A stretch of 64,000 nt of DNA from Amoebophrya sp. A120 (Eukaryota > Protista > Dinoflagellata): the NCBI GenBank assembly GCA_905178155.1, contig CAJINV010000009.1, positions 1,103,415 to 1,167,414 of the forward strand, in the 5' to 3' direction. A program made the translations under genes and the position numbers. Of this stretch, positions 1-54,148 are shown piece after piece; position 1 is the stretch's first letter; every line of letters begins with the position of its first letter. The notes under the pieces were generated by a model, which made no database searches, was not told the origin of the DNA, and worked only from the letters and a program-made list of their open reading frames with translations.

Positions 1-2038
1 TCTTTTCCGTCGCGACCGCGAAAACGGCTGCTCGGCAGCGAATCGCGCGTCCGACTCTCTATCGCTCGAGGGCCTGGTAAAACTTCGGCAGTTCTTTGTT
101 TCGCACGCAGCTCCTTCATAAAGTGTTCGTAGTCGACATCTTCATCATCAGATTTCGCCTCTAACGGAGTGAGCACATCAACTCGTGTGAAACCGGACGG
201 CCCAATGGTTCTGGTTGCTTTTTCGAGTACATAATCCGCTTCAGCGCGCCATTCGCATGAAAGTCTACCGGCTGATTCTACTGAATATTCCTTTTTCGGA
301 ATTCGATTGTCCGTCCAGTAGTGGTTTTTTCTCTGCATGCGCTCTGGATCTCGGTCGACTTCTTTTGGCGTGCATCCGGCATCCAGCCGAACGAACTCGA
401 ACTCAATATCAAAATCGAACCCGAGCTCGTGGCGTAACGTTTCCGCAATATCGCTTTTCTGTCGATCATTTAGAAACTCAACTAGCGGCACGTCACCAAC
501 AAAAACCTCGATTGCGGCTTTACTCAGCGATGTGCAGTAATCCGCATTCTCAAACGGCGCATACCCCCCATCGGCGCAGCAACTGTTGCGGTAGCCTCCC
601 GATGGCGGTGTTCGATATGTAGTCAGCCCGGGAGGCAGCACTGCACGTGCGCGGCGATTTCCGTGATTCATGTGACCGACTCGTTTCATCTGGGAAAAGA
701 GCGCTCCGTACCGCCGATGCTGATCAAGAACAATCATGTTCTGTAGAGTATCCTCAAAGTCTAGCGGCTTTTGTTTGATTTTCTGCGCTTCCGCAGGCTT
801 TTCTCTTTTAGGGCAAGATGAGGTCATTCCGGTATTATTCTCCGCGCCTTTTATTTGCTTTGGTGGTACTACGGCGGCGCCGGCTGGCGCCGGTTCGGCG
901 GGTGAATCCTTGCTCACACTGTTACCAGACGTATCCGGTGCAATATCTGCTGCAGAAGATGCAGAATCCTCTTTCGTGGCTGCTTCCTTGACAGAGCCGG
1001 GGTCGTCTTTCCCGACCCTGCTTCCTGGCTGGTTTTCTTTTCCCGCCCGCGCCTTTTCGTGGCTCGCAACAAACTGTGCCATCAGGCCCTCGTTTTCTGC
1101 ATCAGCATCCAGTAGCTCCTGGAAAGACCTACGCTGGAAGACAAATCCACGTTGCTCCTGTACCTGCGGGTCGTGGAGGTTCTCGGCAGTTTCAGAAGAT
1201 TCTTTCGTGCTGACCAAATCCTCGCTCTTTTTCAGCCGAACCGCTACAGGTTCGGCAGAGTCCAAGAAGACAGGAATAGCGAAGGTGTCTTTAGGGCCGC
1301 GCCCGTCTAAAACGTTCCGGAGTAAGTGTAAGCCAGCGTCCGTGTCTATCCCTTGAGCGTCCACTACAGGTGCCGGATTTGCCTGCTGCGCCCTCGCCAC
1401 CTCGTCCAGCAGCAGGTCAAATGTCTTCATATTCCTCTGACGCTCGAACGCCAACTGCATTTTGAAGCACAAATGCTGTTTCACTTAAACAAGGAATACC
1501 CACAGGCAAGCTTCCTATCTCTAAACGCAGATCAAGATCATTTCAGCGACTGTGGTAGAAGACCACTGGGAAAAAAACGAAACTGAACAAAATATCTTCT
1601 TCTACAGATCGAAGTGAGGATCTATGTGTCTCGGTGCGCTTCCATAATGAAAAAGCCAACATACTCACTGCGATCGCTTGTGATTCTGGCTGGATCGTTT
1701 ATCATGCTGTGGCTGTCCGCGTACATCTGCTTTGTCCTCATGTGCGAAACGAAGCTTTCGTGGCAGCACATGATAACTTTGTGGAACCACAATTCTTCCA
1801 GCAAAAAAGAGCAACGCGCGAAAATGTCAAGAACAGTGGTCGCGCTGATAGCTCCTGACACCAAAGTGAACCAACGCGTCATGGAAATGAGAGGAACACA
1901 AATGTTCACCCACGGAACATTTCGATCGAAATCGAAAGAGGATACCAGTTGTGATGAAAGTTCTGGAGATGCTGCCTGGGAAGGCTGCGAACTTTTTTCT
2001 AGTCGCGCTTGCTGTGCGACTCTGACAGGACTCTGCAT
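1..2038 (-). CDS. Hypothetical protein, 3' end truncated by the window edge; exons ~2038-1669 and 1483-<1
   Basis: A GTGAGT...TTTAAG intron at 1484-1668 joins ...RITSDR to MKQHLCFKMQLAFERQR in phase. The same frame is read at position 1 (...SDDEDVDYEHFMKELRAK...). Start codon is uncertain. Confidence 0.7.
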
Positions 2039-33983: not shown

Positions 33984-36900
33984 TCAACTTGCTTCCTCGG
34001 AAATGGTTGACATGGACCGCTTTTTGAACGGAGAGCGACGGATCTTTTCGAGTTCTTCTGCCAGGGAAGGCTCCAACAAGTCTCCGTGCAGGTTCAGATT
34101 CAGTGCGAGCCTCTCCGGTCGGCGCAGCACAGCCTGTTGAAAGACGTGTTTGAAGAAGTCTGTAGGCAGCAAAATTCTGACCTATGGTCGTGCACTGATT
34201 TGTTCAAACGGACCTGCCAACACTTTTCCTTTGAACGTGGTTCAAATTTGTTCAAGCAAAATGCTCAAGCGTACCTCTTCCTCCCCGCCACGCAAAACTC
34301 CGCCCAGCTCCGTCTGCCACTTCTTGAATTATCAACTGTAAAAGTGTCTGGGTCTGGAAGAATGCAAGTTTGTCATGCTTGCCTGGCATGACTCGAGAAT
34401 CTGTGTTGCATAGGCACGAAAAAGCCCTCTTACCTGTCATGCAAAAAAGCAGTTTGCCATGCGAAATGCGTAAGACATGGCAGTCAAAAAATTTGTCATG
34501 CATAGCTGCGTATTGCAGTGCGTCTATCATTCATTTTTAGCATTACAAGTTTCCAGACCCAGACATTTTTGCATTTGATATGAATTCTTCGTCGGCAAGC
34601 TTGTCCATTTCGGATTCTTCCTGTTCCAAAATGGTGTCCAGAGTCAAAAACTCCTCCCTTTTTTGCGCTATCATGTGGAAAAGTTTCCTTGGGCATGGTC
34701 CGCATCAGAACAGCTCGCTCCGAAGTTATTCATCATCATCATCATGAGTTGCAGATAATTAAGTATGTACAGCAGATTTTGCCAACAAATTGGCTCTGTC
34801 TTCATTATCTGCAACGAGAAAGCGAAAAACAGCACGCTGCGTCACTTCACGACGATTCTAGTTTATGCAAGTATACGCCCCTTTGCAGATGGCCTCAAGC
34901 ACCGACCTCCGCTGAAGATGAAGAAACCTTTCCGTGTGATAAGCGCTTCTATTTCTTCCTGAACCTTTTCGCCGTGCAGCATCTCCTCCCGCTTTATGCA
35001 GTCTTCGTGCTTTTGAATGGCTCGGGTGAACTTTTCCAGCTGCGCTTTGCTCTCGTCCAGTAGCTTACTGGCGCCCTGCTGAAACTGCTCGACCAGCTGT
35101 AACTGCTCCTGCTCCCAGTTCAGCAGCTCAGGCTCCTTGAAGAACCGGCGCTTGTTCGTGCCCGTGTGGTGAGAAAGCTTCTCGACCGCAGTGGACTTGT
35201 CGTGCGCTTCGAGCAACTGCAGCTGCTTGTTGTTGGTTTGCAGGATCAAACTCTTCTTTTTCAGGGTATTCTCGAGATCATCCGCTGTTTTGATGTTCAC
35301 ATGTTGTCGTGTATTCACTGTCGTGGCAGCATTTTGATCCTCGGCGTTTGCCGTTCCCTCAGTATCCGCGTCAGGCTGGTTGTCCCAATCTGCTTGATCG
35401 GCCGCGGCGCCGTCAACCAAAACATCTTCCAGCTTCAGCAGAAATTCCGCGTCCAGCTCGTGGCTCATGCCTTGCCGTGCTTTGCTCGGACTCTTGTTCG
35501 CACCATTTCCAGTTGTTGCGTTCTTCCACGCGATCGGCACCGGCTCGTCGTTCAGAAACGCCAGACACTTAAATTTGCTGCCTTGCTTTATCACCTCGAG
35601 GAATTCAGGCTCCTCGGCGTCTTTCTCCTGTTCTTTTCTGATTTCCCCTGTCTCCTGTAGCTGCTCAGATGGATGATCATCTCCATCGACTGGTTCTGCT
35701 GGATCACTGGTTGCTGCGTTCTTCAACTCAGGCTCCGTGCCCGTGGTCTTCTGATCTGCATTTCTTGGGTCATCTTCGCCTTCCCGCTGCTGTTCTGCTC
35801 TTTCAGCTTCATCTTTCACCACATTCATATGCAATTCCGCCAGGGTTTCCCCGAAGTTCTCCGCGATCTGCGACACGACCTTCGCTGTCGGCCCGACCAG
35901 CGGGTTTCCCGCCAAGTCCAGCGCCTCTAGACCCGTGAACACTTGAGTATTACAGGTGCCAGAAAGCTCGTTCGCGGAAGATCTTGCAGTGTCAGCAAAA
36001 CGACCGTCGTCACTTTGTTCGGGAAAAAGCGCACGAATCCCGTTGTTGTTCAGAAACAGTTCGCGCAGCTCTGGCAACGTCGCCTGGTTGTGCGTCGCTC
36101 CTGCTTGTTCCGATGGCGGCGGCGGTTTCTTGGACGATTGAGGATCTGCTGACGAGGACGAGGACGTCGCACTCCCAGACGAGGGACTTGTGGAAAGCGA
36201 AGTGATTCTGTTCTGCACCAGACTCAACGTCATCAGGCGTGGCATGGTCGGGACCCGGACTGGCTCGTTGCTCAGGCTATTTGTGTTGACAGAACTTGTT
36301 TTATTCGCCCCTTTGCTGAAACTCTGCGCACCCAGCGATCCTTGGGTCAAGTCGACGGGTCTCCCGGTTCCACTTGTTCTGTTCATGATCTCCGCAGAAT
36401 TTGTACCAGTACTATTTCCTGTGAGTACCACTCCTAGCTCCCCCGGGGTTTTCTTGGTGAACAAGAAGCTCAGGTTGTCGATCTGGTTGAAGTCCAACTC
36501 CAGTTCCTTCAGCGCCGACAAGTTCCCTAGTGCCTTGTGCAGCGGCACAAAGGTCTTACTCAAGGCCAGTTCGCTGATGGAGGGCCGCTGCAGTGTAGTG
36601 GATTCTGATGCGCGCGACGAGAAGGACACCGCAGCGCTGGAACTGTGTGACGAAGACCGCCCACTGCGTGCGGTCGACAGCGGCGTAGGACACACTGACG
36701 AAGCTACGGACTCGCCCTGATCCTCTCCTCGAGATCCAGCACTCGAGAGCAGAATTGAGCCGATTCTGTTGTGGTTCAGACACAGCACTTCCAACTTCGG
36801 GAGCCACTGCAGACTGGTTGACAAGTTCGCGATACGATTGTGCGACAGGTGCAACTCTTTCAGGCTGGGCGGAAAGACGGACCTGGCTCTGTTCCCTCCC

Positions 36901-38129
36901 TGTCGGCCCGTAGCCGCGTTGTAGCCTGCTCTTGATGTTCTGCTGGATTTGCCAAAACTGCTCCCTGTGCTCTCCTGCTGCGCTAGCAGCTGCTCTCCTG
37001 CTTCGCTGACCGTATCTAGTTGTGAGAGCTGCAGTTTCTGGCCCTTTCGCGTGAAAGAAGAAAGCAAGTTGACGCTACCAGCAGCGGACGAGAAAACTGA
37101 TGAAACACCGGAACCGGGTCGACTGCCTACAAGTCGGCTAGACGAGGCAGACACCGGGGTTTGCGCCGCGCTGCTCGCATTGCTCGGCGGTAGGGAGCTT
37201 TGCGCAGCCCCGTTGAATGCAGTTGCGCCAGAAGCAGCTCCGATATTCGCAGTCGCTGGTGTCGCGAGCAACCCCTTGGTGTCGATTTTGTTTTTGTCCA
37301 GGTTTAAAAATGTGAGCGACTTCAGGTTTTCGAGGTTTTGAACTTTCGCAATTTTGTTGTACTGCAGTTCCAGTCGCTCGAGAAACTGAAAGTGTTCCAG
37401 GTTTTCCATTTTCTCGATCTCGCAGGAATGCAGGGAGAGTTCCCGCAGTTGCACCAGTGGCTCCAGGTTCTCGATTTTACGCAGGTTGTTGCCGGACAAA
37501 TCCAATTTCCGCAAATTTTTCACGACGAGCTGATACTCGCGAATCTGCTCCACAGGGACCACGGGTACGATCGCTTGCTCCGTCGTTGCTTCCTCCTCTT
37601 TGTAGAAAAGCGGATCGACACTGTCGAGAAAGCTGAACGTTAATTCACACGCCGACTTGTCTTGCGAAAGGTTCGATTGCAAAAGCTTCGAGGTGAGCGC
37701 TATTTTTATCGCCTCCGGCTTTTCTTGGTTTTTCCTTCCGTTGCCAACCTCGGTAATTTCCTTTTCTTCCTCGGTGGAAAAGGTGCCGTCCTCCTTTTTC
37801 GCATCTTCGATGGCAATCCGAAACTCATCGCGAATCTGCTTCAGAGGCGACAACGCACCAGAGGTGTCGTCTAGGTCGGTCACTCTCGAAGTTGTGGTCG
37901 CGGTTCCCAATTGGCGTTGCGGAGATTTCGACCGGTTGGCTGGGCGCGTTCCTTGTCGCGCCGGTGATGCCGATCGGAGATGCTCTGCTGCATGGCTCGC
38001 AACACCGGGAGCCGTCTCTGCCACACCGGAAGTTTTTATATGCAGTGCGCTGGCTCCCGACGCGGACTTCTTCGGTGAAAAAGCAGACGCGCGTGGCACG
38101 TAGGCCCATTTCCGTGGCTGTTGCAACAT
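33984..38129 (-). CDS. Leucine-rich-repeat (SDS22-like repeats) protein with a C-terminal coiled coil; exons 38129-34928, 34667-34581, 34324-34275, 34181-33984
   Basis: Repeated LxxLxLxxNxI motifs (LRKLDLSGNNLRKIENLEPLVQLRELSLHSCEIEKMENL...). Two GT-AG introns plus one TIR-bounded non-canonical intron whose precise removal restores the frame. Confidence 0.85.
34330..34580. mobile_element. MITE-like introner acting as a non-canonical intron in the LRR gene; 30-bp TIR, 5-bp TSD TGAAT
   Basis: The left end TATCAACTGTAAAAGTGTCTGGGTCTGGAA (34330-34359) matches the reverse complement of 34551-34580, TATCAAATGCAAAAATGTCTGGGTCTGGAA, at 27/30 positions. TGAAT occurs at 34325-34329 and 34581-34585. 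Confidence 0.92.
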
Positions 38130-38926
38130 TTTTTCTCGGGTTCGCGTAGGAGGTACAATCGGAACGCTGAATAAATATCTCCCTTTGCGTGAGTACACAA
38201 TCACAAAAAAAAAGGCCAACCTTCCGTAATACGCAAGAAACCAAAACCAAAATATTCTTTTCTTTTATCGGTCGCGCCAAACCGGAGCGGCCGATTTCTT
38301 GTTTCCTCACGCACCAATCTCATCCGGAAAAAAAGCACAAATTTGACGAACTTCTCTCTGTAAAATTGCGCAGTTCGCTCACGTTGACAAGATCTCTCCA
38401 AAACGCACAAATACGAAATGGAAACACGAAGACACTAGTGATTTCTTTGATAAAAAGATGCGAAATTTACTATTTTGCGTGAAGGCTACAAAAGGTAGAC
38501 CCTTCGCCGTCTTTTTTTTTTTTGTGTATCATACGTTTCAATTCATTCCAATATTTCACCCGATGTTATCAGTGTCCAACAAAAAGTCCACATGTTCACC
38601 TGGTTACCAAATTGCTTTCACCGTCACAACAACGAGAAGATGGTCAATCTAATTAATGAAACCGCAGTAAAATATTCAACCATGAAAAATTAAATCGTAA
38701 AAATGCCCGGTTCCGTGTGTTTCTGAGCTTTTGCTTTTTGAAAAATATGGTGCCGAAGCACTATGACATGTGGGTGTGCTACTACTTATGTGAAAAATTC
38801 ACCGGATTTCAAAATCTGTCTGTGCGTCGTGTAAAGTTTTTAACAGTGTAATTCTATGCGCAAGCGCAGCTCACTTCCCACCCGAATCAACTCTTCCGTG
38901 CGACATCGTTACCATTGTGCACAATT

Positions 38927-40090
38927 TCACATCTTCTTCGTTGGCGATTGCACGTCTTTCCACTGGAATTTTGCCATGGTCTTGTCACCGACGTCAGCAC
39001 CAGCTGGGCTCGGTGGAATACTCCGCAGCTCTTTCTCCATGCCCTTCAGCCATGTATCTGTTACAATCATTTCACTTTTATTTTGCCATCCGACATTTTC
39101 TAATTCGAATTCCACGTGCGGGTGCGAGGTCACAAAATAAATGCCTGGTTTGACTGCGAGGTGCATTTGTTATTGCAGAGTAAGTCGTATACTCTTAGAT
39201 AGAATCAACATACCTCATTCCTGTTCCAAGTGAAACAAATTGAAACAATCCTTCTATACTTCGAAACATGTGACCCGGGTCTGAGCCCATGCTCATTTTC
39301 CCGCTTGACGCAGAAGTGCTGGCAGACCCACTGGTGCTGGCGGTCATTTTCAGCAGCGACTCGACCTTGTTGTCCGGAATCGGTACCAGGGAGCCCTTCC
39401 ACGTCAGCGGTTTGTTGTCCTGCTTCAAGACGTTCGGTCTCGCCGCGGGGTGAGCGAACGTTTCGACGTTGGCTCGGATGTAGGGCCGGGTGTCACGACG
39501 CTCGTGGTCGTGGAACACATACGCTTGCATGCACAACATGGTGGTCGACGCCGTTTATATGTGCGATGATGATGTACCCAGTGGTCGTGGGAGTGAAGCG
39601 AGACGTCAAAAAATTAGTAACGTTCGAGAAGGGATACTCTCGAATCCTACAAAGATGATGCGTGCTGTGGGTATCACTTGTTGTACTGCTTTCACAATCA
39701 CGTGAACTGTAGATAGGGATTCATCTTTTCTTCAGTTACTTCAGATGCAGCTGCAAAAAAAATAATGAGGGACAGTAAAGGCAACACCTGCGTTCATGCG
39801 AAAGAAAAACAACCGACTCCGTTAGGCACCGAAAAAGAAAATCTAAAAACACAGCTGCAGCAAAAAAATCCATTACCGATTGATTCTCTTGCCTGTCTTA
39901 CGCCAGACAGAAAAGTACCTTCGTCAAAAAATGCGACTCTGTCTACCGAGAAAATTATCTGAATTGATTCTTATTTCATGGTGGAAAGACACAAAAAAAA
40001 TGCGGGTACAACGATTCTATGGATTGCAATTTTTGGATTTGTAGAAACTCATCGCATGAAGATACCGATTAGCTCGAGTTTGTTGCGCAT
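38927..40090 (-). CDS. Hypothetical multi-exon protein (weak C2-like NPYLQFT segment)
   Basis: Short exons MRNKLELI / ESIQIIFSVDRVAFFDE / AASEVTEEKMNPYLQFT / IREYPFSN / RRDTRPYIR...MGSDP / GIYFVTSHPHVEFELENVGW... join through GT-AG introns. Confidence 0.5.
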
Positions 40091-40552
40091 CAACTCAAAA
40101 AAAGGCAACTTAGAAAATTGTACCGACAGGCCGTTCACCACCAAAAAGAACAGGTATTCTACATCGCGTACACACTGCGACAAAAAGGCTCGACTTTCTC
40201 GAGGGCAAACCTGCATTTTTTACTACTCGAACTGGGGAAGATAAAGAGTGCCAAATCTGTCGTGACGCTTCTTCGAAGAAAGTCGATGGGGATTTAAAAA
40301 TTCTTCAAGGGGAAAAAAATGTACAAAATGTTTGGGGAAACTTCTAATTCGTCACTTCTGGCCGGGCTTTTTGCAAAAGAATCTGTTTCGCGTCAAGGAT
40401 ATCGACATCTGCCTAATAACCGGGGATGAATTCTGGTGCAATGCCTTTTAAAAGTGAAAAATGACTGTGAACCTCGTACTTGATTTTTCATACTGATACT
40501 GAATAATGTAGCGAGAGAGTAATGCGTTTTCATAAAAAAACAAGTACTTTAC

Positions 40553-40677
40553 TGTTTGAATAAGTTGAAACCTGAAAAGAAAAAGTTGAACCTTGGTTCT
40601 GCCTGTTTGAATAAGTTGAAACCTATAAAAAAAAAGCTAGCGAGCCTGATACTTCTTGTTTGAATAAGTTAAAACCT
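40553..40677. repeat. Degenerate tandem repeat, three units of ~51-53 bp
   Basis: The core TGTTTGAATAAGTT(G/A)AAACCT occurs at 40553, 40604 and 40657. Confidence 0.85.
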
Positions 40678-40997
40678 GAGGAAGAGATTAGTCGTGGTAA
40701 AGAATTTGTGTGAACGGGATTCAAATTCGATACGGAGGACACGACTGCTTCTGCTGCAATGGGAACACGGCTTACACATCACTTTCTTACAAGGGGGACG
40801 AATTATTGCCTAGAAAACAAACTGGAACCTCTTCGATTTTCTAGGTGGTGGATGTGGGAAACATCGAAATACAATTAGTAACAACGGGGTTGTGGGGATC
40901 GCAAGAATAACGTGGTTGCAAGAGGAGGGCAAAAATTTCAAAAAGTCGCACCGCAGATATTATCAGCAAGACACTTACTCTCGTTTCCAAAACCTGC

Positions 40998-43900
40998 TCA
41001 GATATCGTCTATGCCGCAAAATCATCTGCACCAGTCACGACAAAACACACGCGATCGCATTCTACTGCTTGCCCTTTATGTTTGCGAGATCGGCCTTGTC
41101 AAATTTCGTTGCCAAGGCCACCGCGATGTTGATTTCCTCGTCGTCGATGGCCCGACGGCTCGCGCTGGAACTGGACCCGCAGAAAATCATGTCGCTGCAC
41201 CGTCCCGCGCCGGAGGGGCGCACTTGCACCCCCCGCCCGTTGCCACCCGATCGCGAGTTCTCGATCACGGCCGGTCGGATCACGTGGTGCACCAACAACT
41301 CCGTCAGCTCCGTGATTTGTGCGGACTGCCTCTCCAGCAGTTCCTGCTGTTGATTTACCTTCTCGCTGAGCAGCTGCATCTCTTGCCTCTGGTTCATCAT
41401 CCGTGGCTGCTGGCCCTGTTGCACTATGCTCGTTGACTGTCTCTGTGGTGAGAAGGGCGTGGCTTCCCCCTCCGCAACCGGTATTCTCTTGTTCCCGCCC
41501 TGCATCGGTGGGGGCAGGGGCGGCGCGCCAGAATTCGAGCCCGTCTCGTCCCCATTTACCAAGGTGTGGATCTGTTTTTTTTTTCACGATAAAATGAGGA
41601 TTTTTCATGAGAACGCGTCAGCTCCTTTCCCTGCTAGTTCTACATCTACTGCGCTATTAAAGTCATCGAATCACAAAAGTTTTCGGAGGGAAAGGAAATT
41701 CATTGAAGTGCTTACGACATCAATTTGTTCGGATAACATGATGAAGATAAAGCAAGTGTCAAATAAAAGGAGCAACAGTAAGCACCTTGGTTTCCAAGTT
41801 CGCGATCTTATCGACCATCTCGGCGTGGTCGTCGCTGAGCATGGTGTAAAGGGCCTCCGTAGCGATCTCGTTGGGGATGACGATGTCGGTGGCGTTGTCT
41901 GTGTCTAGGATTGCGCTGCGGATGACACGCTCGCTCTGCCCCTGGGGGATGTCGGGGATCATCTGTTTCAGTTTCTTCGGCGTTATCATGCGCCCCTCGG
42001 TGCGGATGAAGGCTAGGGTTTTGTGGCCCGGCACGAAAAAGTCCGGGTCCTCCAGCGAGCAATCGTTGCCGGAATTTATGTAGCACTCGCACGGCCCGCG
42101 CACCACCATCCGCCACATGAAGGTGTAGGGAAAGACCTCATTCGTGCTGTCCACGGCCGCTTTGGTGCTGTTGCCCTTGCTCTTATGTGCGTCCTTGAGC
42201 GTCTCTTGGTGGGCCGCGAAGGCGAGCGCGTGCCGCTGTTCCAGCTCCCGGCGGACCAGGATCCGGCGGTTGGCCGACCCCACCATGCGGTCCAGGATCT
42301 CGTCCAATCGCAGCCGCTCGCGGCGCTTGGACCGCACGTACCGCCCGAAGCTCTCCATCGCTTGCGAAAACAGCGTCTCCGCCTTCGCCGTCTCGTCGCG
42401 CTTCACCTCCAGGTAGGTCTCGAGGATGATGGCCAGCAGCATGTTGAGCATGATCAAGACGATCAAGAGGTGGAAGAAGGTGAAGTAAACCGCCGTGCCG
42501 CTCCACGATACCTCCTTTAGCTGCCCGTAGTCAAAGTCCCCGGCCACCATGCGCCAACACGAAATGATGGCGCGCTGGACGGAACTGTACTCGTGCACGT
42601 AATTCCCGAACAGAAGGGTGCCGATGACCGCGAAGGACGCGAACACCGAGCCGAAGACGATCATGAAGTGCAGAATGTCGCTGGCCGCCTTCCAGATCGT
42701 GTTGGTGACCAGGCCCAGGCGCGGCTGCGCGGAAAAGCCCTTGAACATGCGGCACATGCTGATCACAATGTACAGGATCGACTGCAGCTGCGCGTCCGCC
42801 ACCAGCGCCATGTTGGTTTCCACGCGGTCGTACAGCTGCTCGCGCCGCGCGGATTCCACGAACCCGCCGTTCTTCACCAACTTGCCCAGGTCGTCCGCCG
42901 CTTCGTTCAACAACACAAACCGCGCGATCACGAACCCGGAACTGATCATGATGGACCAGTCGACCAGGTTCCAGATCCCCAGGTAGTTCGACAGGAATTT
43001 GTGCGTGTTGCCCCAGTAGATCAGCTGCCGGCGGATGTCCATCATTTCGGAAAACAGAATGTACAGGTTCATCAGCACCCAGAAAATGTCCACGAACAGC
43101 ACGAACTGCATGTCGTCGAAGTTGAACATGCGGCCAAAGTCCGTCAGCCACTGGCTGGTAACCGTCATCTGCTTCCGGATCTGGCCGCCGCGGTAGAAAA
43201 TGAAGTGCATGGTCACCATCGAGATCGCGCCGTACGCGCGGTTCACGTTCACAAAGTCGACCTCTATCTTGTACGTGTCCTCTTTGATGACGAAGTCCTC
43301 CTCCATCTTCTTCAGCTGCCGCTCCAGCTGCGCGGCCGTCTGGTCCAGCTGCAGGTAGATGGTCTCCTTGCTGCCGTCGAGGTCGAAGGACCCCACGGGC
43401 GCGAGCTCCGACACGTCCTTCATCGGGAACTGCGCGTGCACGCCATACGCGTCCGGGCTGCTGTAGCAGCCGATGCTGGTGTCCACGTTACCGGTGGTGG
43501 AAAACCCGGAAATAATGTCGGCGGGGAGGTACTCGGTGCAGTCGCTGCCCGGCCACACCGGGCTGGACCGGTGGATGTTGATGCGCACGTCCGTGGCAAT
43601 GTGGTTGAACCGCATCAGGTCCGACGACTTGATCACCGGGGGGGCCGGGGTCGTGCCAAGGGTCGAGTTGTAATAGTTGGCCATGCCGCCCAGCTTAAGC
43701 GCGCCCTGCTCGGAAGAAACGTAGCCGGAGGTCAGCATCAGGGGCACGAAACCCAACCGCATAAATGAGTACCAGTCGCCGAGGTTGTGCACATCGACGA
43801 ATCCCTTGATGCCCCAGGTATCTGTTGAGAAAGAATTTTGTTGAATATCTTCAGTAACCACTTGCTACATTTCATTCATCGGCGCACAAAAATCGTGTAG

Positions 43901-44814
43901 GTTCTTTGTCTACATACAATTTAAATTTTGGGTACATCAGGTACAGCCTACTACATTAATACCGTACCGGTTCACTTACTCGTGCTTTATTATCGTTCTT
44001 TGACGCAACCAAACAAAAAGCAAAATAGAAGCTATACTCGTCGCATCGATGGCGAAGTTCGCGTTTTCCTGGACCCAGTTGGTCATGGACTCGGAGATGT
44101 CCATCTGGTGCGGCACCGAGAAGTGCCAGAGCACGAGAAACGAGAAGATGACCACCAGGCCGATCGAGCAGGGCAGGGTGAGACAGGCCTGCTCGTCGTC
44201 CAGCTCCTTTTGCAGCCACTCAATGAGCTCGATCTCCTTGATCCCCTCGGTCCGGGAGACGTAGTCCGCCTGGCCCCGCTTCTGCTTGCTGGTGGCGAGC
44301 TCTTTCATCTTCCGCTGCAGCAGGGACTCCTTCTGCATGTCCCGCATGTAGCCGTCCGCCTGGTACCCCGTCAGCAAGTCGTTCGCCATCTGCTTCACCT
44401 GGGTCAAGCTCGCTGTGTAGTCCGCGGCTTCCGTGGGAACCAACTCCGCCGTGTATCACAGTGAAAAATGCCCCCACCCCCAAAGTTGCAAGAATTTGTG
44501 CTGCGAAGTTTCCAAATGAAAACTTTCTGTCATGCATGAAAGGAGTATGAATCTTTCCGATGCAGAGTCTTGGCGTATATCGCATCGCTTGCATGACGAG
44601 CGCCGCTCTTGCTGGGATCTTTTGCAATACAAATTTTTGCTCTTCACGATTGGAAATCTGTGATGCTGGTACATGGAAGAGGGCGAGTGTTTCATTTGCA
44701 AAGGTTTGCAATACAAATGCTCCCAAGTTTGGGAGTGGGGGGCATTTTTCATTGTAATACCGTGTCCCCGCGGTTGCCGCTGTTGTTCAGCACGGACTGC
44801 ACTAAGGCCGCCAT
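40998..44814 (-). CDS. Polycystin-2 (PKD2/TRPP)-like cation channel; exons 44814-44761, 44449-44038, 43821-41786, 41571-41073 (+41008-40998)
   Basis: TM1, a large extracellular loop, YLGIWNLVDWSIM, RMFKGFSAQPRLGLVTNTIWKAASDILHFMIVF, pore CWRMVAGDFDY, and S6 LIVLIMLNMLLAIILETY. Introns at 43822-44037 and 41572-41785 are GT-AG; the last intron is a possible GC-AG at 41009-41072. Confidence 0.9.
44454..44759. mobile_element. MITE-like introner acting as non-canonical intron 1 of the PKD2-like gene; ~70-bp imperfect TIR, 5-bp TSD CCGTG
   Basis: The left end TATCACAGTGAAAAATGCCCCCACCCCCAAAGTTG... matches the reverse complement of the right end, TATTACAATGAAAAATGCCCCCCACTCCCAAACTTG... CCGTG occurs at 44449-44453 and 44760-44764. 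Confidence 0.93.
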
Positions 44815-46533
44815 TTTTCCGACCGGTTCGCGACAAAAAAGGAAGTAGTACGGGTATAAAAAAAACTGCCGTGCAGCTTCGTTCTCTTCCGGTGTGTCTG
44901 TCTATTCGAGGATGGAGATGGACGCGATCAACTTACGACCAACTGAGAGGTCGGTGGCAGCACGCGCCACAGCGATTCTTCTCTTGCCCGTTGCCGTCTG
45001 TTGTCGTTCTTGCGCGGCAAAAAAAAACTTACAGCCCTGATGGAGGAAGATGGAAACTCCAGTCCTGATTAATCAGTGCGCCGGACGCACCAATCTGGAG
45101 AGGACATGCCATGTTGATTGTCATATTTTTGGAAGAGGTAGATGTAGTGGTAAAAAAATTGCTATGTATCAATCCTCGCCGTACTACTTCCGCCTGAAGC
45201 TATAGAAGGAGTAGAGTAGAATCTATCGTGTCTACACGCAACGAGGCACGGGGAGAGACGTACTAAAAAATGGGGGTCGTCAAAGCGAACCTGGATTTTC
45301 AATATGCAGCAAAGAAATGCGCAAACTAAAAGTATTAACTATGACCAGAAATTCAACGTAGTTCTTGACGAAAACTGCATTCTTGAAGCCGGACGATTTT
45401 GACGAACGCATAATTTGGAAATCACAAGATGAACTCGAAATACTCACTTTGGGCGTTTTTCGTTTTTGATTGCACGGTCACGTCAGACAGGACGAATACG
45501 AGATGACACCGATCTTGCGGCAAAAGGAAAACCGACCATTTGCTTGGAATGGACGTTAGAGCAGCCAGACGAACAACATTGAAGATTTGTGTCAACGAAA
45601 TATACATCGAAACCACCGAGTCGGCCCTATACGAGGAAAAGAAAAAGAGACGATGAAAGATGCTATTCTGCGCACGCCAGAAAATACGACTTCATGAAAT
45701 GACACCATCAACGAACAGAGGCGGAGATGAATCAGGTCCATGAAGGCTCGAGAATGATTACGCACTCCAACTGCCCGCGCAAGACACTGCAAAAAAGATC
45801 TTTAGCGGAGTGCTATCACAATGTCGGCTGTTTGTACGCTTTGTTGTCTATTGTCATTATCGTACCATTGAATCAGAGGAAGAAGAAAGACAATCACAAT
45901 TCCGCGAACAGAATCGCGGCCTGCTGATTGCTTTTGAAATGTTTTTCTCTTCTCTCCCGAAAAGCAAAGGAGAGAACCTCCGCTAAAATGAATTTCAAGA
46001 ACTTAGGTTTTGCGTTTATTTCAAAAGATGTTGTAGAAGGTATGACCAAGTTCTCCATTCATATTTCGCATCGCAGCATCCGAAGTACCACAGTACTTTC
46101 AGAAGGACGACGCTAGCTGCACTACTAGCCAGAAGACATTGCTTCTCACATGTAGTAGTCCTATTCCGATTGCGACAATCAGCAACATACAAGCACATCA
46201 AGAATGCGAGCGCCCCACACGATTGCCCCTAGAGTCTGAATACAGATACATTTTACTTAGTACTGGAAAATCACGTCTACCTCGCGCAATTGAAAATGCA
46301 TAGTCGCAATCGCGACATGCTCTCAAACTACCACTACCTGATTGGTAAGCTAGCCGGCGGCAAAGACTATTTGAGAGGAAAGCCTATGGGCTTTCATCGA
46401 AAAACCGCTTCGGCCGGCGTTCTCGAGAATCGTGATTCGGAAGGTATATTTCGTGAGCCATACGACGTAGGAGGTAAGCCGCGATGCGCAGGACATGGGC
46501 CCAGCTGCGTCTTTCTCCAATAATGATGCAACC

Positions 46534-46891
46534 TCATTCCGTCGCCTGCTCCTTGTACAGACTCACATCGACCTTCTGTGCCTCCCGAAACTCAGCGAAC
46601 TTTTCCTTCGCCAAGGCGAAGTACTCCTGTGAGAATACATGTTGCAGCTTTCACTCTGTATTCGTTTTGCTTGCACAAATGACTCATTCATGCACACGAA
46701 GTTGTACACTTTCACAGACAGGTGCTAAACAGAAAGCGCAAATGAAGATTCCTACATATTCATCAGTGTCTTACCTTGGCCTTCTCGTAGGCCTGGTCGT
46801 ACACCGGCTTCAGCTGCTCCGACTTGTAGACTCCAATACTAGTGCCCACACCAGCGCCGACAAGAAACTCGAAGCAGCCCAGGGTGCTCAT
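46534..46891 (-). CDS. Small single-TM protein (~69 aa) with a glycine-rich N-terminal helix, loosely STMP1/YtxH-like; 2 exons
   Basis: MSTLGCFEFLVGAGVGTSIGVYKSEQLKPVYDQAYEKAK, then a GTAAGA...CACAG intron, then EYFALAKEKFAEFREAQKVDVSLYKEQATE*. Confidence 0.65.
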
Positions 46892-47558
46892 CTTCTTGTG
46901 ATCTTTTGGTTCTGGTTGCAAGCAAGTACTTAGTTCGAAGCGTAATCGGTCACTTCTCGTGCTTAGTGAAATTGAGGAGAAATTTGAGAAAAGAGTGACT
47001 TTAGGTCGCGACTCACAGTCGAAGAGGATACTGCAGCAAAGCCTTGATACCCAATTTATATTTTTTTTCTCATCATGTAAATATAACTGCGCTCTTGCAC
47101 AGCAGCACCGACAGTGTCGCAGCGGCTGAAAAAAGGATTGCAGCTTAAAAAAGAAACAAATTCCTCGCAGCTTCTGATTTGAAAGTGAGCGCAAGTGCAT
47201 CTTCCAAAAAAAACACAAGCAGAAAAAACAACGACAGTGAGCAAACGCAGCCCTGAAAGAGAGCGCACCAAGAAAAAACTTTTTTCGATGAACATGAAGA
47301 CGCCCTCGGTTGTCTTTGACCATGATTTTTTTAATCTTTCAACTGACCTTCCAGAACACCAGGCTCATGAGCAAGACTCGGCGAGTTGCAGTGCGCTTTC
47401 TTTTATTTGTGTCCTTCTTGCTTAGGAATAACACGCGTCGTGTAAGTACTCGACTACCACATTCTTGTCTGCGATGTTCCCTAATTATGCTTTGCGTTTT
47501 CGTTCAAGAACTTTGCTGCTGCGCATCGAAAGTGAAAGTCCGCCATGCTTCGAATATA

Positions 47559-48252
47559 TTAGATTTGACCACAGTCGGCGACCACGACAGGCTGTGATGT
47601 TTGTCCGGATTCCGAGCCAACCAGCTCGATTTTTTTGACGACGTCCATCCCTTCGATTACTGAGCCAAACACGGTGTGTTTCCCATCCAGCCACGAGGTC
47701 TGGACTGTACAGAGGAAAAACTGGCTCCCATTCGTGTTCGGGCCCGCATTTGCCATCGACAGAATACCTGAGACAAAAATTCGTTTACATCCCCCCAATT
47801 CACACCAATTTTGAACTTTGTTACATAGATTCTATCAAGTCCAAGTGAAGTCGGCTTCTTGTAAGGCCATGTTGCTCCTCGCGAGGACTCGTTCGGTTAT
47901 TCAAAAGTACAAAAAAAAGAACAACAAGCAGGTTTATTTTGGTACCAGGCCCTGTGTGTGTGAGTGTGAAGTTCTCGTCTGCGAATTTGGCACCGTATAT
48001 GGATTCGCCCCCGGTGCCGTTGCCGACCGTAAAATCGCCACCCTGGCACATAAAATTTGGAATCACCCGGTGGAACTTGCTTCCTCGAAAGTGGAGGGCC
48101 TTGCCGCTTTTACCCATTCCCTTTTCGCCCGTGCACAGGGCGCGAAAGTTCTCCGCGGTCTTCGGACACACATCGGCGCGAAGCTCCATTACTATCCTTC
48201 CGCACGAATTCCCACCTATCGCCATGTCGAAATACACCTTTGGGTTGGCCAT
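47559..48252 (-). CDS. Cyclophilin (peptidyl-prolyl cis-trans isomerase, CyPA type); 2 exons
   Basis: Motifs [32 protein letters not shown] and [15 protein letters not shown]...WLDGKH. GT-AG intron at 47768-47945. Confidence 0.98.
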
Positions 48253-48998
48253 TTTTTCACTTGTCCTGACCTAGTCAGCAGAGCAGAATTCCAAGTAACT
48301 GAATCAAGGTGCCAGCACAGAGACAGACCGACGCGACTGTCGTAGTGGCGTCGAAAAATGAATCCTGAAATGACTACGACCACTTCCTGCTACACGTATA
48401 CACCAAGAAAAAGTAGAATAGGCAGCTTTGGAGATACATTAATGAAAGTGAACCATCAAGACCGAGAAGACCGTGATCAAATCGCTATTTTAGAAAAAAT
48501 GATTTTTCTGCTGGGTCACAGTGCTGGCGATTTGCGTTATTTGAACCGGGAACGTGAGATCGTGCCTCTTCACTGCAGCGGGATCTCAGGCTGACTTTAA
48601 TACTTATTTTCCTGCCGAACAACTTGCTGCGGATCGTGGCTCCGCTTCAAACAAAACGTGAATGCCGCATCGTATCCTGTGGACATTGTTGTTTTCCTGA
48701 CCAGATCGGAAGAAAGAAAAGCAAACAAGCTAAGAAGCCATACACAAACGAGGCAGAAGTTAGGACGGGTTCATCTTGGCGAATGCGGCAAATGCACGTT
48801 TTCCGTGGCTGCTGATCCTGCTCCCGATGAACAGCCCTTTGATATAATCTTCGAACGGTGCTTCCGACGTAGTTGCTACCCACAGCAAGTTGATTTTGAA
48901 AATTTCAAAGAATCTCAGAAGCACAACTTCTGTTTCGCGCCACATTTCGTCCGCATTGTGATTTTCCGTCGGGAAAATATGAAGTTTCGATTTTTGCA

Positions 48999-50649
48999 TC
49001 AGTAGTAGCTGAAACTTCTCCACTCTAAATCTGCGACTTCGTCCTCGAAATCGACAGCCGGAGAAAACGACGGATAGCACCTGGTACGCCTTTCCAGAAG
49101 GGTCTGGCTCTTGCGTGCGATCTCTCCTAGTGTGCTCCGAAGTTCACTCAGGTTCTCTTCCGCAGAGTGAAGAAGACACCCATCCGCTTTTATTTCTCTA
49201 CCACCTCCTGTATCGTCTTTTATGTTGTTGCCCGGCTTCTTGGTTCCGCGCACTAGAAGCCTGCTCAGGTCGCGGACCGCCTGGCAGACCAGCTTGTCCT
49301 CGTCAGATCGAGTATCTATTTTCGGAAAATGATCCAGTTGCGCAAGGGAACTTCGCTCTTCCGGAAAAGATGATAAGGCTTCCTCATCGCTCGTCTCGTC
49401 CGCTCGCTGACGATTTTCGGGAAGACCATCATCTATCCCACCACACGTTCCGACGTCCGTCTGGCTCACCTCTTGCAAAGCCACTTTCATTTTGCTCGGA
49501 GCCAAAATTCTATTCCGAATGAGACGCGGCTCATCACATCTGTTCTTCACACCTCTTCTAGACGCCTCTTGCATGTGTGCGTGGAAGTGCGGGGCGTCGC
49601 TATCTCGTGCGAAGGCTGAAAGCAACTCTCTCGAGATTCTGCCGTAAACAAGCCGAAGGACCCGATGATATCGGCTGCCGTCGCCGCTCGCATCTTGACC
49701 AAGCGCTGTATGTAGCTTTGCTTCAGCTTCTGCTTCGGGAAGGATTCGCATGATGCCAGTCACTGTCGCATGCAGATCCACCAGGTCCAGCCTGCGTGCC
49801 CCGAGTGCCGGTGCGCAGAACTGCGATGGACGCACAATCGGATGCATGTTTGCGACGTGGGGGAGGAAATAACTTGATCGTATTTATAGCAAGAGGGATA
49901 CTAGGGAATCGATCTGTTACGGGTGAACATGAACGTGAAGTATTGAAGGCACCACCGAGGGAGTGGTAGTAGCGTTGGAGGAAAAATGCACTGTATTTAT
50001 AGGCCAAAAAGCGCCTGTGGGAAGCATTGCTTAACGCAACGACAACATTGCTCAGCCGTGGGACAATAAAAATAATGCCTGCTCGGACTGGTGGAAACAC
50101 AATGGATCAGATCACATATACATGACACAACCGACAAAATGGAGATGCACAGCAATGTCCGAGTCCCACAGAATACCTGTGTAACTTCCGCGGAATCAGA
50201 AACAGAATCAGGTAATCACGATCTCATCAACCGAACATTTTGATTTTAGCCGAGGGAGCCTCGTGCATGTTTAGATTGATGACAGAGGCGAGTGAAACCG
50301 ATTCCGAAGAACCAGGAGATGACCGAATGAGATGAAGATCCATCAAGACGCGCATTGCATCAAAGTGTGTGCTCAACGCTCTGCGCTTCAAAGAGAGCGG
50401 ATACGCAGCCGGAGTCGCCGACCGCGATAAGAAGGAACACGCATCCAACCAACATGCTGCAGGAGAATGGCTCAGCAGGTGCCACCGCCTTCTTGTGGAG
50501 CTCTTTCTTTGTGTTTCCTGTGGCTCAAACAATCCGTGTGCGCATGCGTACCGCGTCCATTGATCACATCGCTCAATGTAAAAGACTCGTTTGCCAATAG
50601 CACTGGGCCAAGCGTAGACACTTTCCCTCTCAGGGCGTGAGTAGGCCAC
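48999..50649 (-). CDS. Hypothetical protein; exon structure unresolved
   Basis: Protein-like ORFs at 48999-49847 (282 aa) and 50227-50649 with intervening splice-like sites. The full phase chain was not established. Confidence 0.45.
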
Positions 50650-50879
50650 ACGTTCTCATTAACGCAAACGTCTCTCACACAAACAGGGATGTATTTATTT
50701 CTCTTATGTTCGACACAACAGATTGCTGATTCTAAACTCGTACGTGCCGTCATGTTCATTCTTCACGGACTCTTCCAACTGACCAGACACAACGTCTGGC
50801 TGTCTCCAGTCAGGAGTCCAAGCCCGTATGTGGATTCATCACCTTCCGTCGAAAAAGAAGTGTTGGAAGCAAGCCCGAT

Positions 50880-51365
50880 TTAGTCGAACAGATCGAACTC
50901 CATCTCCTCCTCCTCTTCTTCCACAACTTCTTCCTTCTTAGCCTCCGCAGCCGGAGCGTCGCCGCCCGCGGCAGCGCCGCCAGCTGCAGCACCACCGCCG
51001 CCGCCACCGAAGCCCTGGAGCTGCTCACGGCCCTTCGCGATCACTTCGTGAACGACCTTACCTGTTGTGCAGTGATTTTGAAAATTTTCAATTCAGCTGT
51101 GTCTTTAAATTTTCGTCGCCGACGAAGATGATGCTTCTCTTTTTATGTCCAATTGTGTGGGAATGAAACTGATACTTACATGCGATTACTTCCAAGACTC
51201 TTCACTAAAAAAAGTACCCTTCATCTCGGAGATGAGCTTGTCAGCCAAAGCCGAATCAAATTCGCCGCCGGCGGCTTCGATGATCTTCTTTAAATCAGCG
51301 GAGGTCGGCTCGTCCTTGCCGGACAGCACGGTGAGGAGGTAAGCGGAAACGTACTTGAGTCCCAT
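50880..51365 (-). CDS. RPLP2: 60S acidic ribosomal protein P2; 2 exons
   Basis: MGLKYVSAYLLTVLSGKDEPTSADLKKII...GKVVHEVIAKG...EEEEEEMEFDLFD*. GT-AG intron at 51062-51217. Confidence 0.97.
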
Positions 51366-52186
51366 TTTGAAGATGATGTGTCTATGACAACGACGTAGTT
51401 TAAACCACCAGGGGTCCAAAGTTGGCACTGTTATTCACATAGATTGAAAGTGATGAAGATATCAGTAGCAAGAACTCGTGTGTAGCATTGGGGAACTTCA
51501 ACGGCCATGGCAGATGGGCGCGCGGCATTCAGTGGATCGCGATTGGGAAGGGGAACATTTTTGATTTAGACTTGGGCTTTAAATTGATCAAGCTCATGCG
51601 CATGTTGATCTTCTCATTCTGTTGTTTTGGGAACTCTCTAGAATTGGATCTTTTCTTCAATAATCGAAGCTGAACATGAACCGACTCGCCTACATAGTCT
51701 TGAAGTGTAGAAGGGTTCTGAAGCAAATTTTTGGATCTTTAAGTTTCCTGTTGAGTTCTTCCTTGAGTCCATGGGCAACTAATTAAATACAAATACATTG
51801 ACAATGCCTTCACCATACCCTCCTTGAGGAACAACGCACAAAAAAATTTGATCGATCTGAGGGCAGCACCTTTTTATGCTCGAGCTTGGCGGGAATGAGC
51901 CATGCATGAGTTTTGCCTTTGATTTCTCACATGCTGCTAGCGTTCTTGCAGTGTAGTTTATGATGCAGGATTCGGATTTCCAAAATTTTCTAGCTTTAGA
52001 TTATTAAATTGGGACTTTAGCGTGTTTTGCCACGAGGAAAAAAAATGAATCATGTTGTGAGGGGTTTGTCTAAAAAAATTTTCGTGCAGAAGCAGTGTCG
52101 GGGAATTTCTTCTATAGTGATCGAGAATCTAGCGGCAGAACGATAACGTGTTACGAAACGCAGCCCGCTCCAGGTGAAAAGACGCA

Positions 52187-54148
52187 CTACTGGATCGAGC
52201 ACCAGTCGTCCCCGTCGGAGTCGTCTTTCTTGTCCGCGGATCGCCGCCGGTCCCTTTCTTGCGAGCGGCGACTGCCCTTCTTCCCGTCGCCCTTCTTCCA
52301 GCCCTTCTCGTCGTACCCACCGTTGTCCCAGTCGCTCCGGTAGCTGTTCTCCCAGTCCTTTCCTTTCCCCTTCTTTTTGCCCTTCCAGCTCTCCTTGCCA
52401 CCCATCCAGCTGCCCTTTTTCCCACCGAAATCGTCAAACCCAGGATATCACTTTGAAAACAAACTAACAACCCCGCCCCGGCGAGAAGACTGACTGCACT
52501 CAGCGAGTATTATCCGCAGTGCCAAAGCCAAAGAAAACGGAAATGTTTTAGTGTTTTGCATGAAAACCAAGAAGAGCAACAGGTGCATGGCACTTTTTTA
52601 GTGCGAACAACACGAATGAATCTTTGTCTTGCCCGATGCGAGTCCCAGTTTCATTCAATGTGATAACCCCGGTGGTCCGAACTCGTCGAAACCGTTCCCG
52701 TACGCCGGCTCTTCCCAGTACTCTTCACCATCGTACCCCTCGTCCTCGTAGTACTCGTCGACGTAGGCCTCCTCCGCCTGACGTTTTTTCCTGAAGTACA
52801 CTACCAATGACACAATGATGATCACGCAAAGGACCCCAACTCCGCCAAGAATAATGTACATCGTGTAATCGTCTTGCACTCTTGTCCCCAGAAAAAGACC
52901 CATCCACACGAACGACACGACCCCGTGACGCGATCTCAGACAAATCGTTGCAATGCATATCGTCGTTCGTCAACAAAAAGAGAGGCGTGGTGATGGAACT
53001 ATGTGTATAAGCAGTGACTTCAACTACAGTACCAGTAGGGCCAATGCGAAAAGTATACGCAGAAGTACGCGCTCCTGTTAAGGCATGCTCCCTGTGCTTT
53101 TCGGTCATTCCAATGGCGAAACATCGCGAAGTACAACATGAATAGTCGGGTCATACCTATTAATATGCAGGGAAGATCGGGCAACGAACACGTCGCAAAG
53201 ATGAGCCCACGGGTCTGTGTCTCGTGCGATGAGGGCTGACATTCATTTCGATAGCTTGCGGGGGGGCGGTGGTCGTCGGTGTTTCTGGCGGTGACGGCGC
53301 AGGAGCCGGCGTGCTTGTTGGATCTGCGTCCATGTCTTCGTAGTGAGGCGCTAGTACGATTGCGCCACACTTGGCAACATCGTTCAAACATTCCCGTATA
53401 CTGCACACGCCAGAATCACAAGGGTTGGGACCAGTGGGCTTTGGGCGCGGAACGCATGTGTGTACAACTTCCCCCTGTTCAATGTTCCCGGTGCGCTCTG
53501 GTGCGCAAACCGTGCTTTCGTCTGCCGGCTTTACTATGGTGCAACTATTCACGAGCCAACTTTGGTACGATTTGAAGAAAACTTTACAGGATTCTAAAAC
53601 CATCCCCGTACCTTGTTGCCCACAACTCCATAAGCTAACAAAACCCTTTTTCAAATTCTTATTGATTAATTCGCCAGCTGGCCCTCCCGGGATTTCGCAC
53701 GTCGTTCTGTCTGTGTTGAGCTCATCGACGGTAACGTCGCTCGCAACCAAAACTCGTTCCGTGGGGTATCAAAACAAGAGGGGATCCCGTCGCGATTCTC
53801 ACTTTTACTTATGCCTCATATGATCAACCTATATTTCATCATTAACTTTAAGCTTTACCATCGACTCGGTTTGCAGATCACGATTCACAGCAGCTACAGC
53901 CGTGGTGGATGGTCTGAGACAGAACATGCAAACACTAACAGAAACAGGCCAGACTGAAAGGACGGAGCTGCACATTGAGATCTTCTCGACGACGGGATGC
54001 TTATGCACTACCATACGGCGTTTACCTTCCGAGCCGTCTGGTGGTTCTGCTTGATGAACGTGAAACCTTGCACCGTCTGCAAAGCAACAAAATGGACTAG
54101 TACAGTGTGCTTCATCAGGAACGCCATGCGCAAGGACTTCGGTCCCAT
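52187..54148 (-). CDS. Type I membrane protein: signal peptide, Cys-rich ectodomain, Pro/Thr stalk, TM, acidic Tyr-rich then Lys/Gly/Trp-rich tail
   Basis: Exons at ~54148-54069, ~53895-53858, ~53758-53260, 52880-52667 and ~52447-52187. TM is YIILGGVGVLCVIIIVSLVVYF followed by RKKR. A GC-AG intron lies at 52881-53259; the last intron is TIR-bounded. Confidence 0.75.
52446..52665. mobile_element. TIR-bounded introner (decayed) in the last intron of the type I membrane protein gene
   Basis: TATCACTTTGAA at 52446 matches the reverse complement of the right end, TATCACATTGAA, at 11/12 positions. The termini match the other two elements and fall at the exon boundaries. Confidence 0.75.

What the first reader, a model, noticed from the sequence alone, without database searches (positions are those of the whole stretch)
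44449..44764. Introner with a ~70-bp TIR separates the first 18 codons of the PKD2-like channel (GT-CG type intron)
Seen in sequence: a 306-bp element with a long imperfect TIR and a CCGTG TSD. Removing 311 nt (44450-44760) joins MAALVQSVLNNSGNRGDT to AELVPTEAADY in frame. On the coding strand the last G of the TSD plus the TIR start TAT form a normal-looking GTATTA donor, but the acceptor is ...ACACG (CG). A GT-AC register leaving one extra codon is also in frame. Inference: a half-canonical intron, possibly an intermediate between transposon and ordinary spliceosomal intron.
Basis: partly seen in the sequence, partly recalled or inferred. Interest (0 to 1): 0.8.

Follow-up and report, generated by a model that had tools for sequence, protein, structure and literature searches.

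The report
Known Amoebophrya introner; GT is coincidental
A 306-base hairpin-ended mobile element interrupts the start of an ion-channel gene of the marine parasite Amoebophrya A120 and is missing to the base from spliced transcript assemblies; it is one of this parasite's already published 'introner' introns, and its GT start is likely a chance by-product of a cut made at a fixed distance from the element's ends, not a sign of a half-way stage to a normal intron.

Summary
Observation confirmed. A 306-bp TAT...ATA element (44454-44759), with 70-bp arms at 80% identity and a 5-bp target duplication, splits a polycystin-like channel gene after codon 18. Spliced contigs from three RNA-like runs (2 samples, 1 study) skip exactly 311 nt. 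A DNA-like run shows no such joint. The joined model equals the annotated Amoebophrya sp. A120 protein. It fits the published A120 introner elements (Farhat 2021), whose Table S4 already lists GT-CG.

The junction alone allows seven registers. Four neighbouring spliced elements share only one with it: 1 nt before TAT, 4 nt after ATA. That gives GT-CG here but AT-TC, TT-GC, TT-CT and CT-AG there. Among 31 related copies, G at the donor position is at background (10 of 31, p=0.38) and AG is absent (0 of 31). An in-frame AG 6 nt away is not used in the contigs shown. So 'half-canonical intermediate' is not supported.

Likely mechanism: a relaxed spliceosome reading the TIR ends (inferred). This scan noted the same fixed register earlier on other A120 DNA.

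The parts
44815..45006 (-). 5' leader of the transcript (at least this long), no ATG
   Evidence: X6 contig covers 44760-45006 joined to exon 2; ATG count 0
44761..44814 (-). coding exon 1, 18 codons from the ATG at 44814
   Evidence: joined model equals P0001; N-terminus aligns loosely with P0002
44760..44764 (.). target-site duplication copy upstream in the transcript (CCGTG on +); its last base on the coding strand is the G of 'GT'
44454..44759 (.). introner element, 306 bp, TAT...ATA ends, 44% GC against 61-65% in the flanking exons
44690..44759 (.). TIR arm at the 5' end of the intron (TAT + 7 nt + A run)
   Evidence: (80% over 70 nt)
44454..44521 (.). TIR arm at the 3' end of the intron
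44449..44453 (.). target-site duplication copy downstream in the transcript
44450..44760 (-). 311-nt non-canonical intron at the inferred register (1 nt before TAT, 4 nt after ATA; ends GT-CG)
   Evidence: 311-nt skip in X3, X5, X6; register inferred from neighbouring elements
44444..44445 (-). in-frame AG 6 nt downstream (would give a 317-nt GT-AG intron); not used in the contigs shown
   Evidence: joints
44038..44449 (-). coding exon 2
43822..44037 (-). canonical GT-AG intron, 216 nt
41786..43821 (-). coding exon 3, holds the PKD_channel / Ion_trans domain
   Evidence: Pfam PF08016 E 1.6e-20; 100% to P0001
41572..41785 (-). canonical GT-AG intron, 214 nt
41062..41571 (-). coding exon 4 with stop codon

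Best explanation
This is a copy of a multi-copy TAT...ATA element family of Amoebophrya A120, flanked by a 5-bp duplication and missing with exactly one duplication copy from spliced contigs; it was likely inserted as a non-autonomous DNA transposon and is likely cut out of the pre-mRNA at a fixed offset, 1 nt before TAT and 4 nt after ATA, by the parasite's relaxed spliceosome reading the element ends rather than GT and AG. Shown: the anatomy, the 311-nt skip in three RNA-like runs, the intact 1003-aa protein, the dispersed family with 5-bp duplications. Inferred: the register (from four neighbours), and that the end-to-end stem brings the two ends together. At this register the TIR supplies U+2, A+3 and A-5, which most of the window's canonical introns also have, while +1, -2 and -1 come from the target site and vary freely. 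Least certain: that the cutter is the spliceosome. Odds by step: known A120 introner, spliced precisely 0.95; 1/4 register 0.8; spliceosome as cutter 0.6.
For: Skip of 311 nt in X3, X5 and X6, in contigs that also skip the gene's two GT-AG introns and show 0 other letters in the exon pieces listed. DNA-like run X1 enters the element from both flanks and shows no such joint. Joined model identical to P0001. 32 of 40 complete related elements have a perfect flush 5-bp duplication, and 29 of 40 are 84-91% identical to this one. Allowed registers of the 5 spliced TIR elements in 33500-53400 intersect only at 1/4: the one at 52446-52665 allows only 1/4, and two more exclude 0/5; gene strands checked by open frames across the joints. 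At 1/4: +2 T 5 of 5, +3 A 5 of 5, -5 A 5 of 5; in six canonical introns 6 of 6, 5 of 6, 5 of 6. All 9 predominant A120 motifs in Farhat Table S4 have T at +2. Farhat found most spliceosome proteins but no U1 or minor-spliceosome snRNAs in A120 (section 10). The element at 52446 keeps 11 of 13 TIR pairs with 0 of 5 duplication matches and is still spliced, which fits selection on the TIR ends.
Against: Only one element pins the register uniquely, and this element's own junction cannot. No lariat, intermediate or raw-read evidence: raw-read runs were no test, so all RNA evidence is contigs that are RNA by guess and drop rare forms, from 2 samples of 1 study, and 29 joints were not shown. G-U against A-C mismatches in the terminal stem show no bias toward the transcribed strand (31 against 28, p=0.79; a weak test, dominated by inherited differences). 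The match with canonical +2/+3/-5 rests on 6 canonical and 5 non-canonical introns. Farhat's Fig. 3 legend says splice sites are variable relative to the hairpin. The family copies were not shown to be spliced.
Confidence: 0.6

Rival explanations
1. Same element and same fixed register, but removal is by a separate structure-guided endonuclease and ligase that measures from the terminal stem, as suspected for euglenid nonconventional introns.
For: Strong terminal stem (z -7.9). Copies sit in both orientations, 9 against 12 of 21 confident family copies. No conserved +1, -2 or -1 base. The review PMC11282704 (section 6) describes euglenid TIR/TSD introns released as circles without lariats.
Against: The offset places the TIR's T-A on +2/+3 and an A on -5, as in the canonical introns here, which a stem-reading nuclease would not need. 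No G-U bias toward the transcribed strand (weak). The spliced element at 52883-53253 keeps only 6 of 13 terminal pairs.
Confidence: 0.25
2. One reading: the GT donor is recognised as a normal 5' splice site and the intron is an intermediate on the way to an ordinary GT-AG intron.
For: At the inferred register the ends read GTATTA and ACACG, close to the canonical GTATA and AACAG seen in this window. Three of the 9 predominant A120 motifs in Table S4 start GT.
Against: G at that position in 10 of 31 copies, equal to background (p=0.38); AG at the acceptor in 0 of 31, and 0 of 39 with weak strand calls included. Neighbours are spliced with AT, TT, TT, CT starts. The in-frame AG 6 nt away is not used in the joints shown.
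Confidence: 0.1
3. The element is not spliced; the RNA samples come from cells whose DNA lacks it (empty site or DNA excision).
For: RNA-like runs (samples S2, S3) and the DNA-like run (S1) are different samples. Precise loss with one duplication copy is what an empty site looks like.
Against: All five TIR elements in the stretch are skipped in the same contigs that skip GT-AG introns. X1 shows none of these joints. Two of the skipped elements have decayed duplications, and the joined form mixes the two copies. RNA-like runs also hold other copies of the family.
Confidence: 0.04

Closest known systems
Introner elements (IEs) / non-canonical introns of Amoebophrya sp. A120 (Farhat et al. 2021, PMC7789003; read: abstract, sections 10, 11, 12, 16, find passages, supplement passages and Table S4 rows; figures not visible)
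   Same: Same organism (exon 3 product 100% to an A120 protein). IR starting TAT, then 7 nt, then an A run; 3-5 nt direct repeat at the boundaries; hairpin; repeated family; GT-CG listed at about 2% of A120 introns.
   Different: The arms here run about 70 nt, longer than the 8-20 nt IR motifs the paper used. The paper calls splice positions variable or unknown relative to the hairpin; the five elements here fit one fixed offset.
Introners of other eukaryotes that take splice sites from the target duplication (Symbiodinium, Florenciella, Aureococcus; Gozashti et al. 2022, PMC9860276; read: find passages only)
   Same: MITE-like TIR/TSD elements whose splicing restores the mRNA, with boundary bases supplied by the TSD.
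   Different: The examples in those passages carry or co-opt splice sites from the TSD or insertion site; here the family shows no GT enrichment and no AG at the inferred ends, and sits in either orientation.
Euglenid nonconventional introns (review PMC11282704; read: section 6 and find passages)
   Same: Non-canonical ends, TIR stem set a few bases in from the intron ends, TSD-like repeats.
   Different: Different lineage and consensus (pairs at +4..6 with -8..-6, pyrimidine|purine junctions); released as circles, which was not testable here.
Polycystin-2-like (TRPP-like) cation channel, Pfam PF08016
   Same: Host gene carries PF08016 and PF00520; orthologues in two other Amoebophrya (69% and 50% identity over exon 3).
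   Different: Only distant matches outside Amoebophrya (24-35%); channel function not tested.

Membership tests
Amoebophrya A120 introner element (Farhat 2021) | lies in an Amoebophrya A120 gene | tested here: met
   exon 3 product 100% to P0001, named Amoebophrya sp. A120; whole joined model identical
Amoebophrya A120 introner element (Farhat 2021) | removed from transcripts with non-GT-AG ends | tested here: met
   311-nt skip in X3, X5, X6; none of the 7 equivalent registers is GT-AG. Runs are RNA by guess, but the same contigs skip GT-AG introns
Amoebophrya A120 introner element (Farhat 2021) | terminal inverted repeat starting TAT + 7 nt + at least 3 A | tested here: met
   both arms against section 11 of the paper
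Amoebophrya A120 introner element (Farhat 2021) | 3-5 nt direct repeat at the boundaries | tested here: met
   5-bp duplication; 32 of 40 related copies likewise
Amoebophrya A120 introner element (Farhat 2021) | repeated in the genome | tested here: met
   other copies in runs X1, X3, X5, X6; 29 copies at 84-91% in one other assembly whose strain identity was not established. No whole genome held, so no copy count for A120
Amoebophrya A120 introner element (Farhat 2021) | assignment to one of the 1,954 published families | not testable with these tools
   no family sequences seen in the supplement passages read
Canonical U2-type GT-AG intron | GT donor and AG acceptor at the spliced junction | tested here: not met
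   no register of the observed 311-nt skip ends in AG with GT; the 317-nt GT-AG option is not among the joints shown
Spliceosomal intron (any type) | excised as a lariat via a branch A, snRNP-dependent | not testable with these tools
   contigs only; raw-read runs laid 0 reads
Minor U12-type intron | AT-AC or GT-AG ends with U12 consensus | tested here: not met
   no AT-AC or GT-AG register on the coding strand; paper reports no U11/U12/U4atac/U6atac
MITE (non-autonomous TIR DNA transposon) | short, non-coding, TIRs, fixed-length TSD, dispersed copies | tested here: met
MITE (non-autonomous TIR DNA transposon) | cognate autonomous transposase / superfamily | not tested
   no genome held; Farhat found no transposase in A120, Gozashti 2025 attributes A120 introners to diverse TIR transposons

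The most novel reading that the evidence does not exclude
A120 splices tens of thousands of transposon introns with a U1-less spliceosome that has dropped the G+1 and AG rules and instead reads bases supplied by the transposon ends (U+2, A+3 at the donor; A-7 and A-5 at the acceptor) at a fixed 1/4 offset. This intron is a natural test case: given a perfect GT donor and an in-frame AG only 6 nt further on, the machinery still cuts at CG, so the TIR-defined acceptor outranks AG.
Probability: 0.5. Interest if true: 0.65.

Novelty: already known. Interest (0 to 1): 0.3.

Why it matters
The element itself is one of tens of thousands already described, and this intron is implicit in the public protein model. 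What could matter is the register. The published work leaves the cut position and the machinery open. If all cuts fall 1 nt before and 4 nt after the TIR, the long list of odd dinucleotide pairs collapses to one rule, intron ends can be annotated exactly, and lariat or circle sequencing has exact coordinates to test. This locus is a convenient one, because a canonical GT-AG alternative is available in frame and apparently ignored.

Tried and rejected
Whole-genome copy search: no genome held. Raw RNA reads X9-X11 (same species label): 0 reads laid, no test. No listed holder is on record as RNA; X3-X6 are RNA by guess. Rfam scan of 44000-45300: 0 matches at E<=0.1. No second copy of the element in the window. 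None of the 51 fetched loci carries this gene's flanks, so presence or absence at the orthologous site could not be scored. Orthologue alignment is gapped at the junction and cannot tell 311 from 317 nt. G-U against A-C test of RNA-level stem selection: no signal, weak test. GT or GC with AG in any equivalent register, on either strand: 3 of 32 perfect-duplication copies, so canonical rescue is not the family's rule. X1 depth over the element is several hundred times background but is not a copy number. Rows dropped: of 51 loci, 11 had no partner end in the held DNA (mostly cut short; includes L044, the only locus from another data set); L009 was dropped for 0 of 5 duplication match; 8 more were set aside for weak strand calls, leaving 31. 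Roy et al. 2023 (Curr Biol) is not held and was not seen.

Full report
Observation. The element is as described. It spans 44454-44759 (306 bp), begins TAT and ends ATA, and is flanked by CCGTG at 44449-44453 and 44760-44764. Its arms align at 80% over 70 nt. The arm score is far above 300 shuffles (94 against mean 22.8, maximum 38), and the coding strand folds into a long terminal stem, z -7.9, 0 of 100 shuffles as stable. Read through, the frame from the ATG at 44814 stops after 21 codons, so the element has to be removed for exon 1 to be used.

Host gene and organism. Exon 3 encodes a PF08016/PF00520 domain and is 100% identical to a 1003-aa protein named Amoebophrya sp. A120 (P0001). Joining the four exons at the joints seen in contigs gives P0001 letter for letter, so this intron is already implicit in the public annotation. 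Orthologues exist in two other Amoebophrya (P0002, P0003). Their N-termini align loosely with exon 1 but are gapped at the junction.

Transcript evidence. Eleven runs were listed. Three raw-read runs laid 0 reads and are no test. Contigs of X6 and of X3, X5, X6 skip 311 nt at 44448->44760, in the same records that skip the gene's two GT-AG introns, with 0 other letters in the exon pieces listed. These runs are RNA by guess and are 2 samples of 1 study. The DNA-like run X1 has long contigs that enter the element from both flanks and shows none of the listed splice joints. The second refutation is worth care: an in-frame AG lies at 44445-44444, which with the GT at 44760 would make a canonical 317-nt intron. 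One search listed all 3 joints of X6 in 41500-45500, and neither this form nor the +3-nt GT-AC form is there. Contigs drop rare variants and 29 joints were not shown, so minor isoforms are not excluded.

Which register? The junction has 6 ambiguous letters, so seven registers give the same mRNA, none GT-AG or AT-AC on the coding strand. Four other TIR elements in 33500-53400 are also skipped, all in minus-strand genes judged by open frames across the joints. Counted as bases before the TIR and after it, 34330-34580 allows all seven registers, 34669-34941 excludes 0/5, 52883-53253 allows 1/4, 2/3 and 3/2, and 52446-52665 allows only 1/4. The only register common to all five is 1/4. There the ends are GT-CG for this element, and AT-TC, TT-GC, TT-CT and CT-AG for the others. 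This rests on one uniquely informative element and two partly informative ones.

The family. A scan of metagenome contigs with a 22-letter TIR motif gave 51 loci, 50 from one assembly. Whether that assembly is the same strain was not established, and none of the loci carries this gene's flanks. Forty held both ends: 32 of 40 have a perfect flush 5-bp duplication, and 29 of 40 are 84-91% identical to the window element, 295-318 bp long. After dropping L009 and 8 weak strand calls, 31 copies remain in which removal of element plus 5 nt leaves an open frame on a called strand. At 1/4 the first base is G in 10, C in 10, T in 6 and A in 5. G makes up 28% of all duplication bases (p=0.38). AG at the acceptor: 0 of 31 (0 of 39 with weak calls). 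Family copies face both ways relative to the gene, 9 against 12 of 21. These copies were not shown to be spliced. A test for RNA-level stem selection found nothing (G-U 31, A-C 28), but inherited arm differences dominate it.

Mechanism. Shown: anatomy, precise loss of element plus one duplication copy, dispersed family with 5-bp duplications. Inferred: transposon-style insertion; a fixed 1/4 cut; recognition through the TIR ends. At 1/4 the TIR gives T+2 and A+3 in 5 of 5 and A-5 in 5 of 5. The window's six canonical introns have these in 6, 5 and 5 of 6. A-7 is present in 5 of 5 TIR introns but only 2 of 6 canonical ones. The element at 52446 has lost its duplication entirely (0 of 5) yet keeps 11 of 13 terminal pairs and is spliced, which suggests the ends are kept for splicing; 52883 is spliced with only 6 of 13. 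Farhat et al. found most spliceosomal proteins but no U1 snRNA in A120 (section 10). I therefore favour a relaxed spliceosome (0.6) over a separate stem-guided nuclease (0.25). Neither was tested.

Comparison with what is known. Farhat et al. 2021 (PMC7789003; abstract, sections 10-12 and 16, supplement passages; figures not visible, so Figs S19-S25 may bear on the register) define A120 introner elements by IRs starting TAT, seven variable bases and an A run, with 3-5 nt direct repeats, and list GT-CG at about 2% of A120 introns. All 9 predominant A120 motifs in that table have T at +2, as a 1/4 register predicts. Their Fig. 3 legend calls the splice position variable and unknown. Gozashti et al. 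2025 (PMC12130899, passages) attribute A120 introners to diverse transposons. The review PMC11282704 (section 6) treats the mechanism as open. Five searches of the held library turned up no paper on a fixed register in the listings and passages I read; Roy et al. 2023 was not available. Earlier notes of this scan on other A120 DNA report the same 1/4 offset. I had derived the offset before reading them (note). One of them prompted the +2/+3/-7 comparison. They are not independent support.

Verdict. A real, spliced, already known kind of element. The GT-CG label is probably the right register but does not mark a half-canonical stage. Interest 0.3, carried by the fixed-register lead and by the ignored in-frame AG.

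Noticed in passing
window 34330-34580 and 34669-34941: Two more TAT...ATA elements in the minus-strand LRR-protein gene, both skipped in X3, X5, X6 (256 and 278 nt). The first belongs to a family with many relatives in the fetched loci and very high depth in X1.
   Followed up: yes
window 52446-52665: Spliced TAT...ATA element with no trace of a target duplication (0 of 5) but 11 of 13 terminal pairs; pins the 1/4 register. Its flanks could extend the stem by a few pairs.
   Followed up: yes
window 52883-53253: Degenerate element (ends ACA instead of ATA, 6 of 13 terminal pairs), spliced in X3 and X5 as a 376-nt intron, CT-AG at the 1/4 register.
   Followed up: partly
window 62651-63104: 454-bp TAT...ATA element with 12 of 13 terminal pairs and a decayed duplication (1 of 5); removal of element plus 5 nt opens a minus-strand frame. 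No RNA laid.
   Followed up: partly
window 34381-34537: X3 holds a contig that skips 155 nt inside the 34330 element; probably an internally deleted family member from elsewhere in the genome.
   Followed up: no
six canonical introns in window 34134-51217: All six end in ACAG (five in AACAG) and five start GTA: a tight, short 3' consensus.
   Followed up: partly
window 1-48000: The long ORFs and spliced genes checked all lie on the minus strand, as expected from the unidirectional gene clusters reported for Amoebophrya.
   Followed up: no
L001, L010, L014, L017, L023, L027, L028, L045: A second group of elements shares the first 22 TIR bases but is only 57-60% identical overall (311-330 bp): same ends, different interior.
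   Followed up: no
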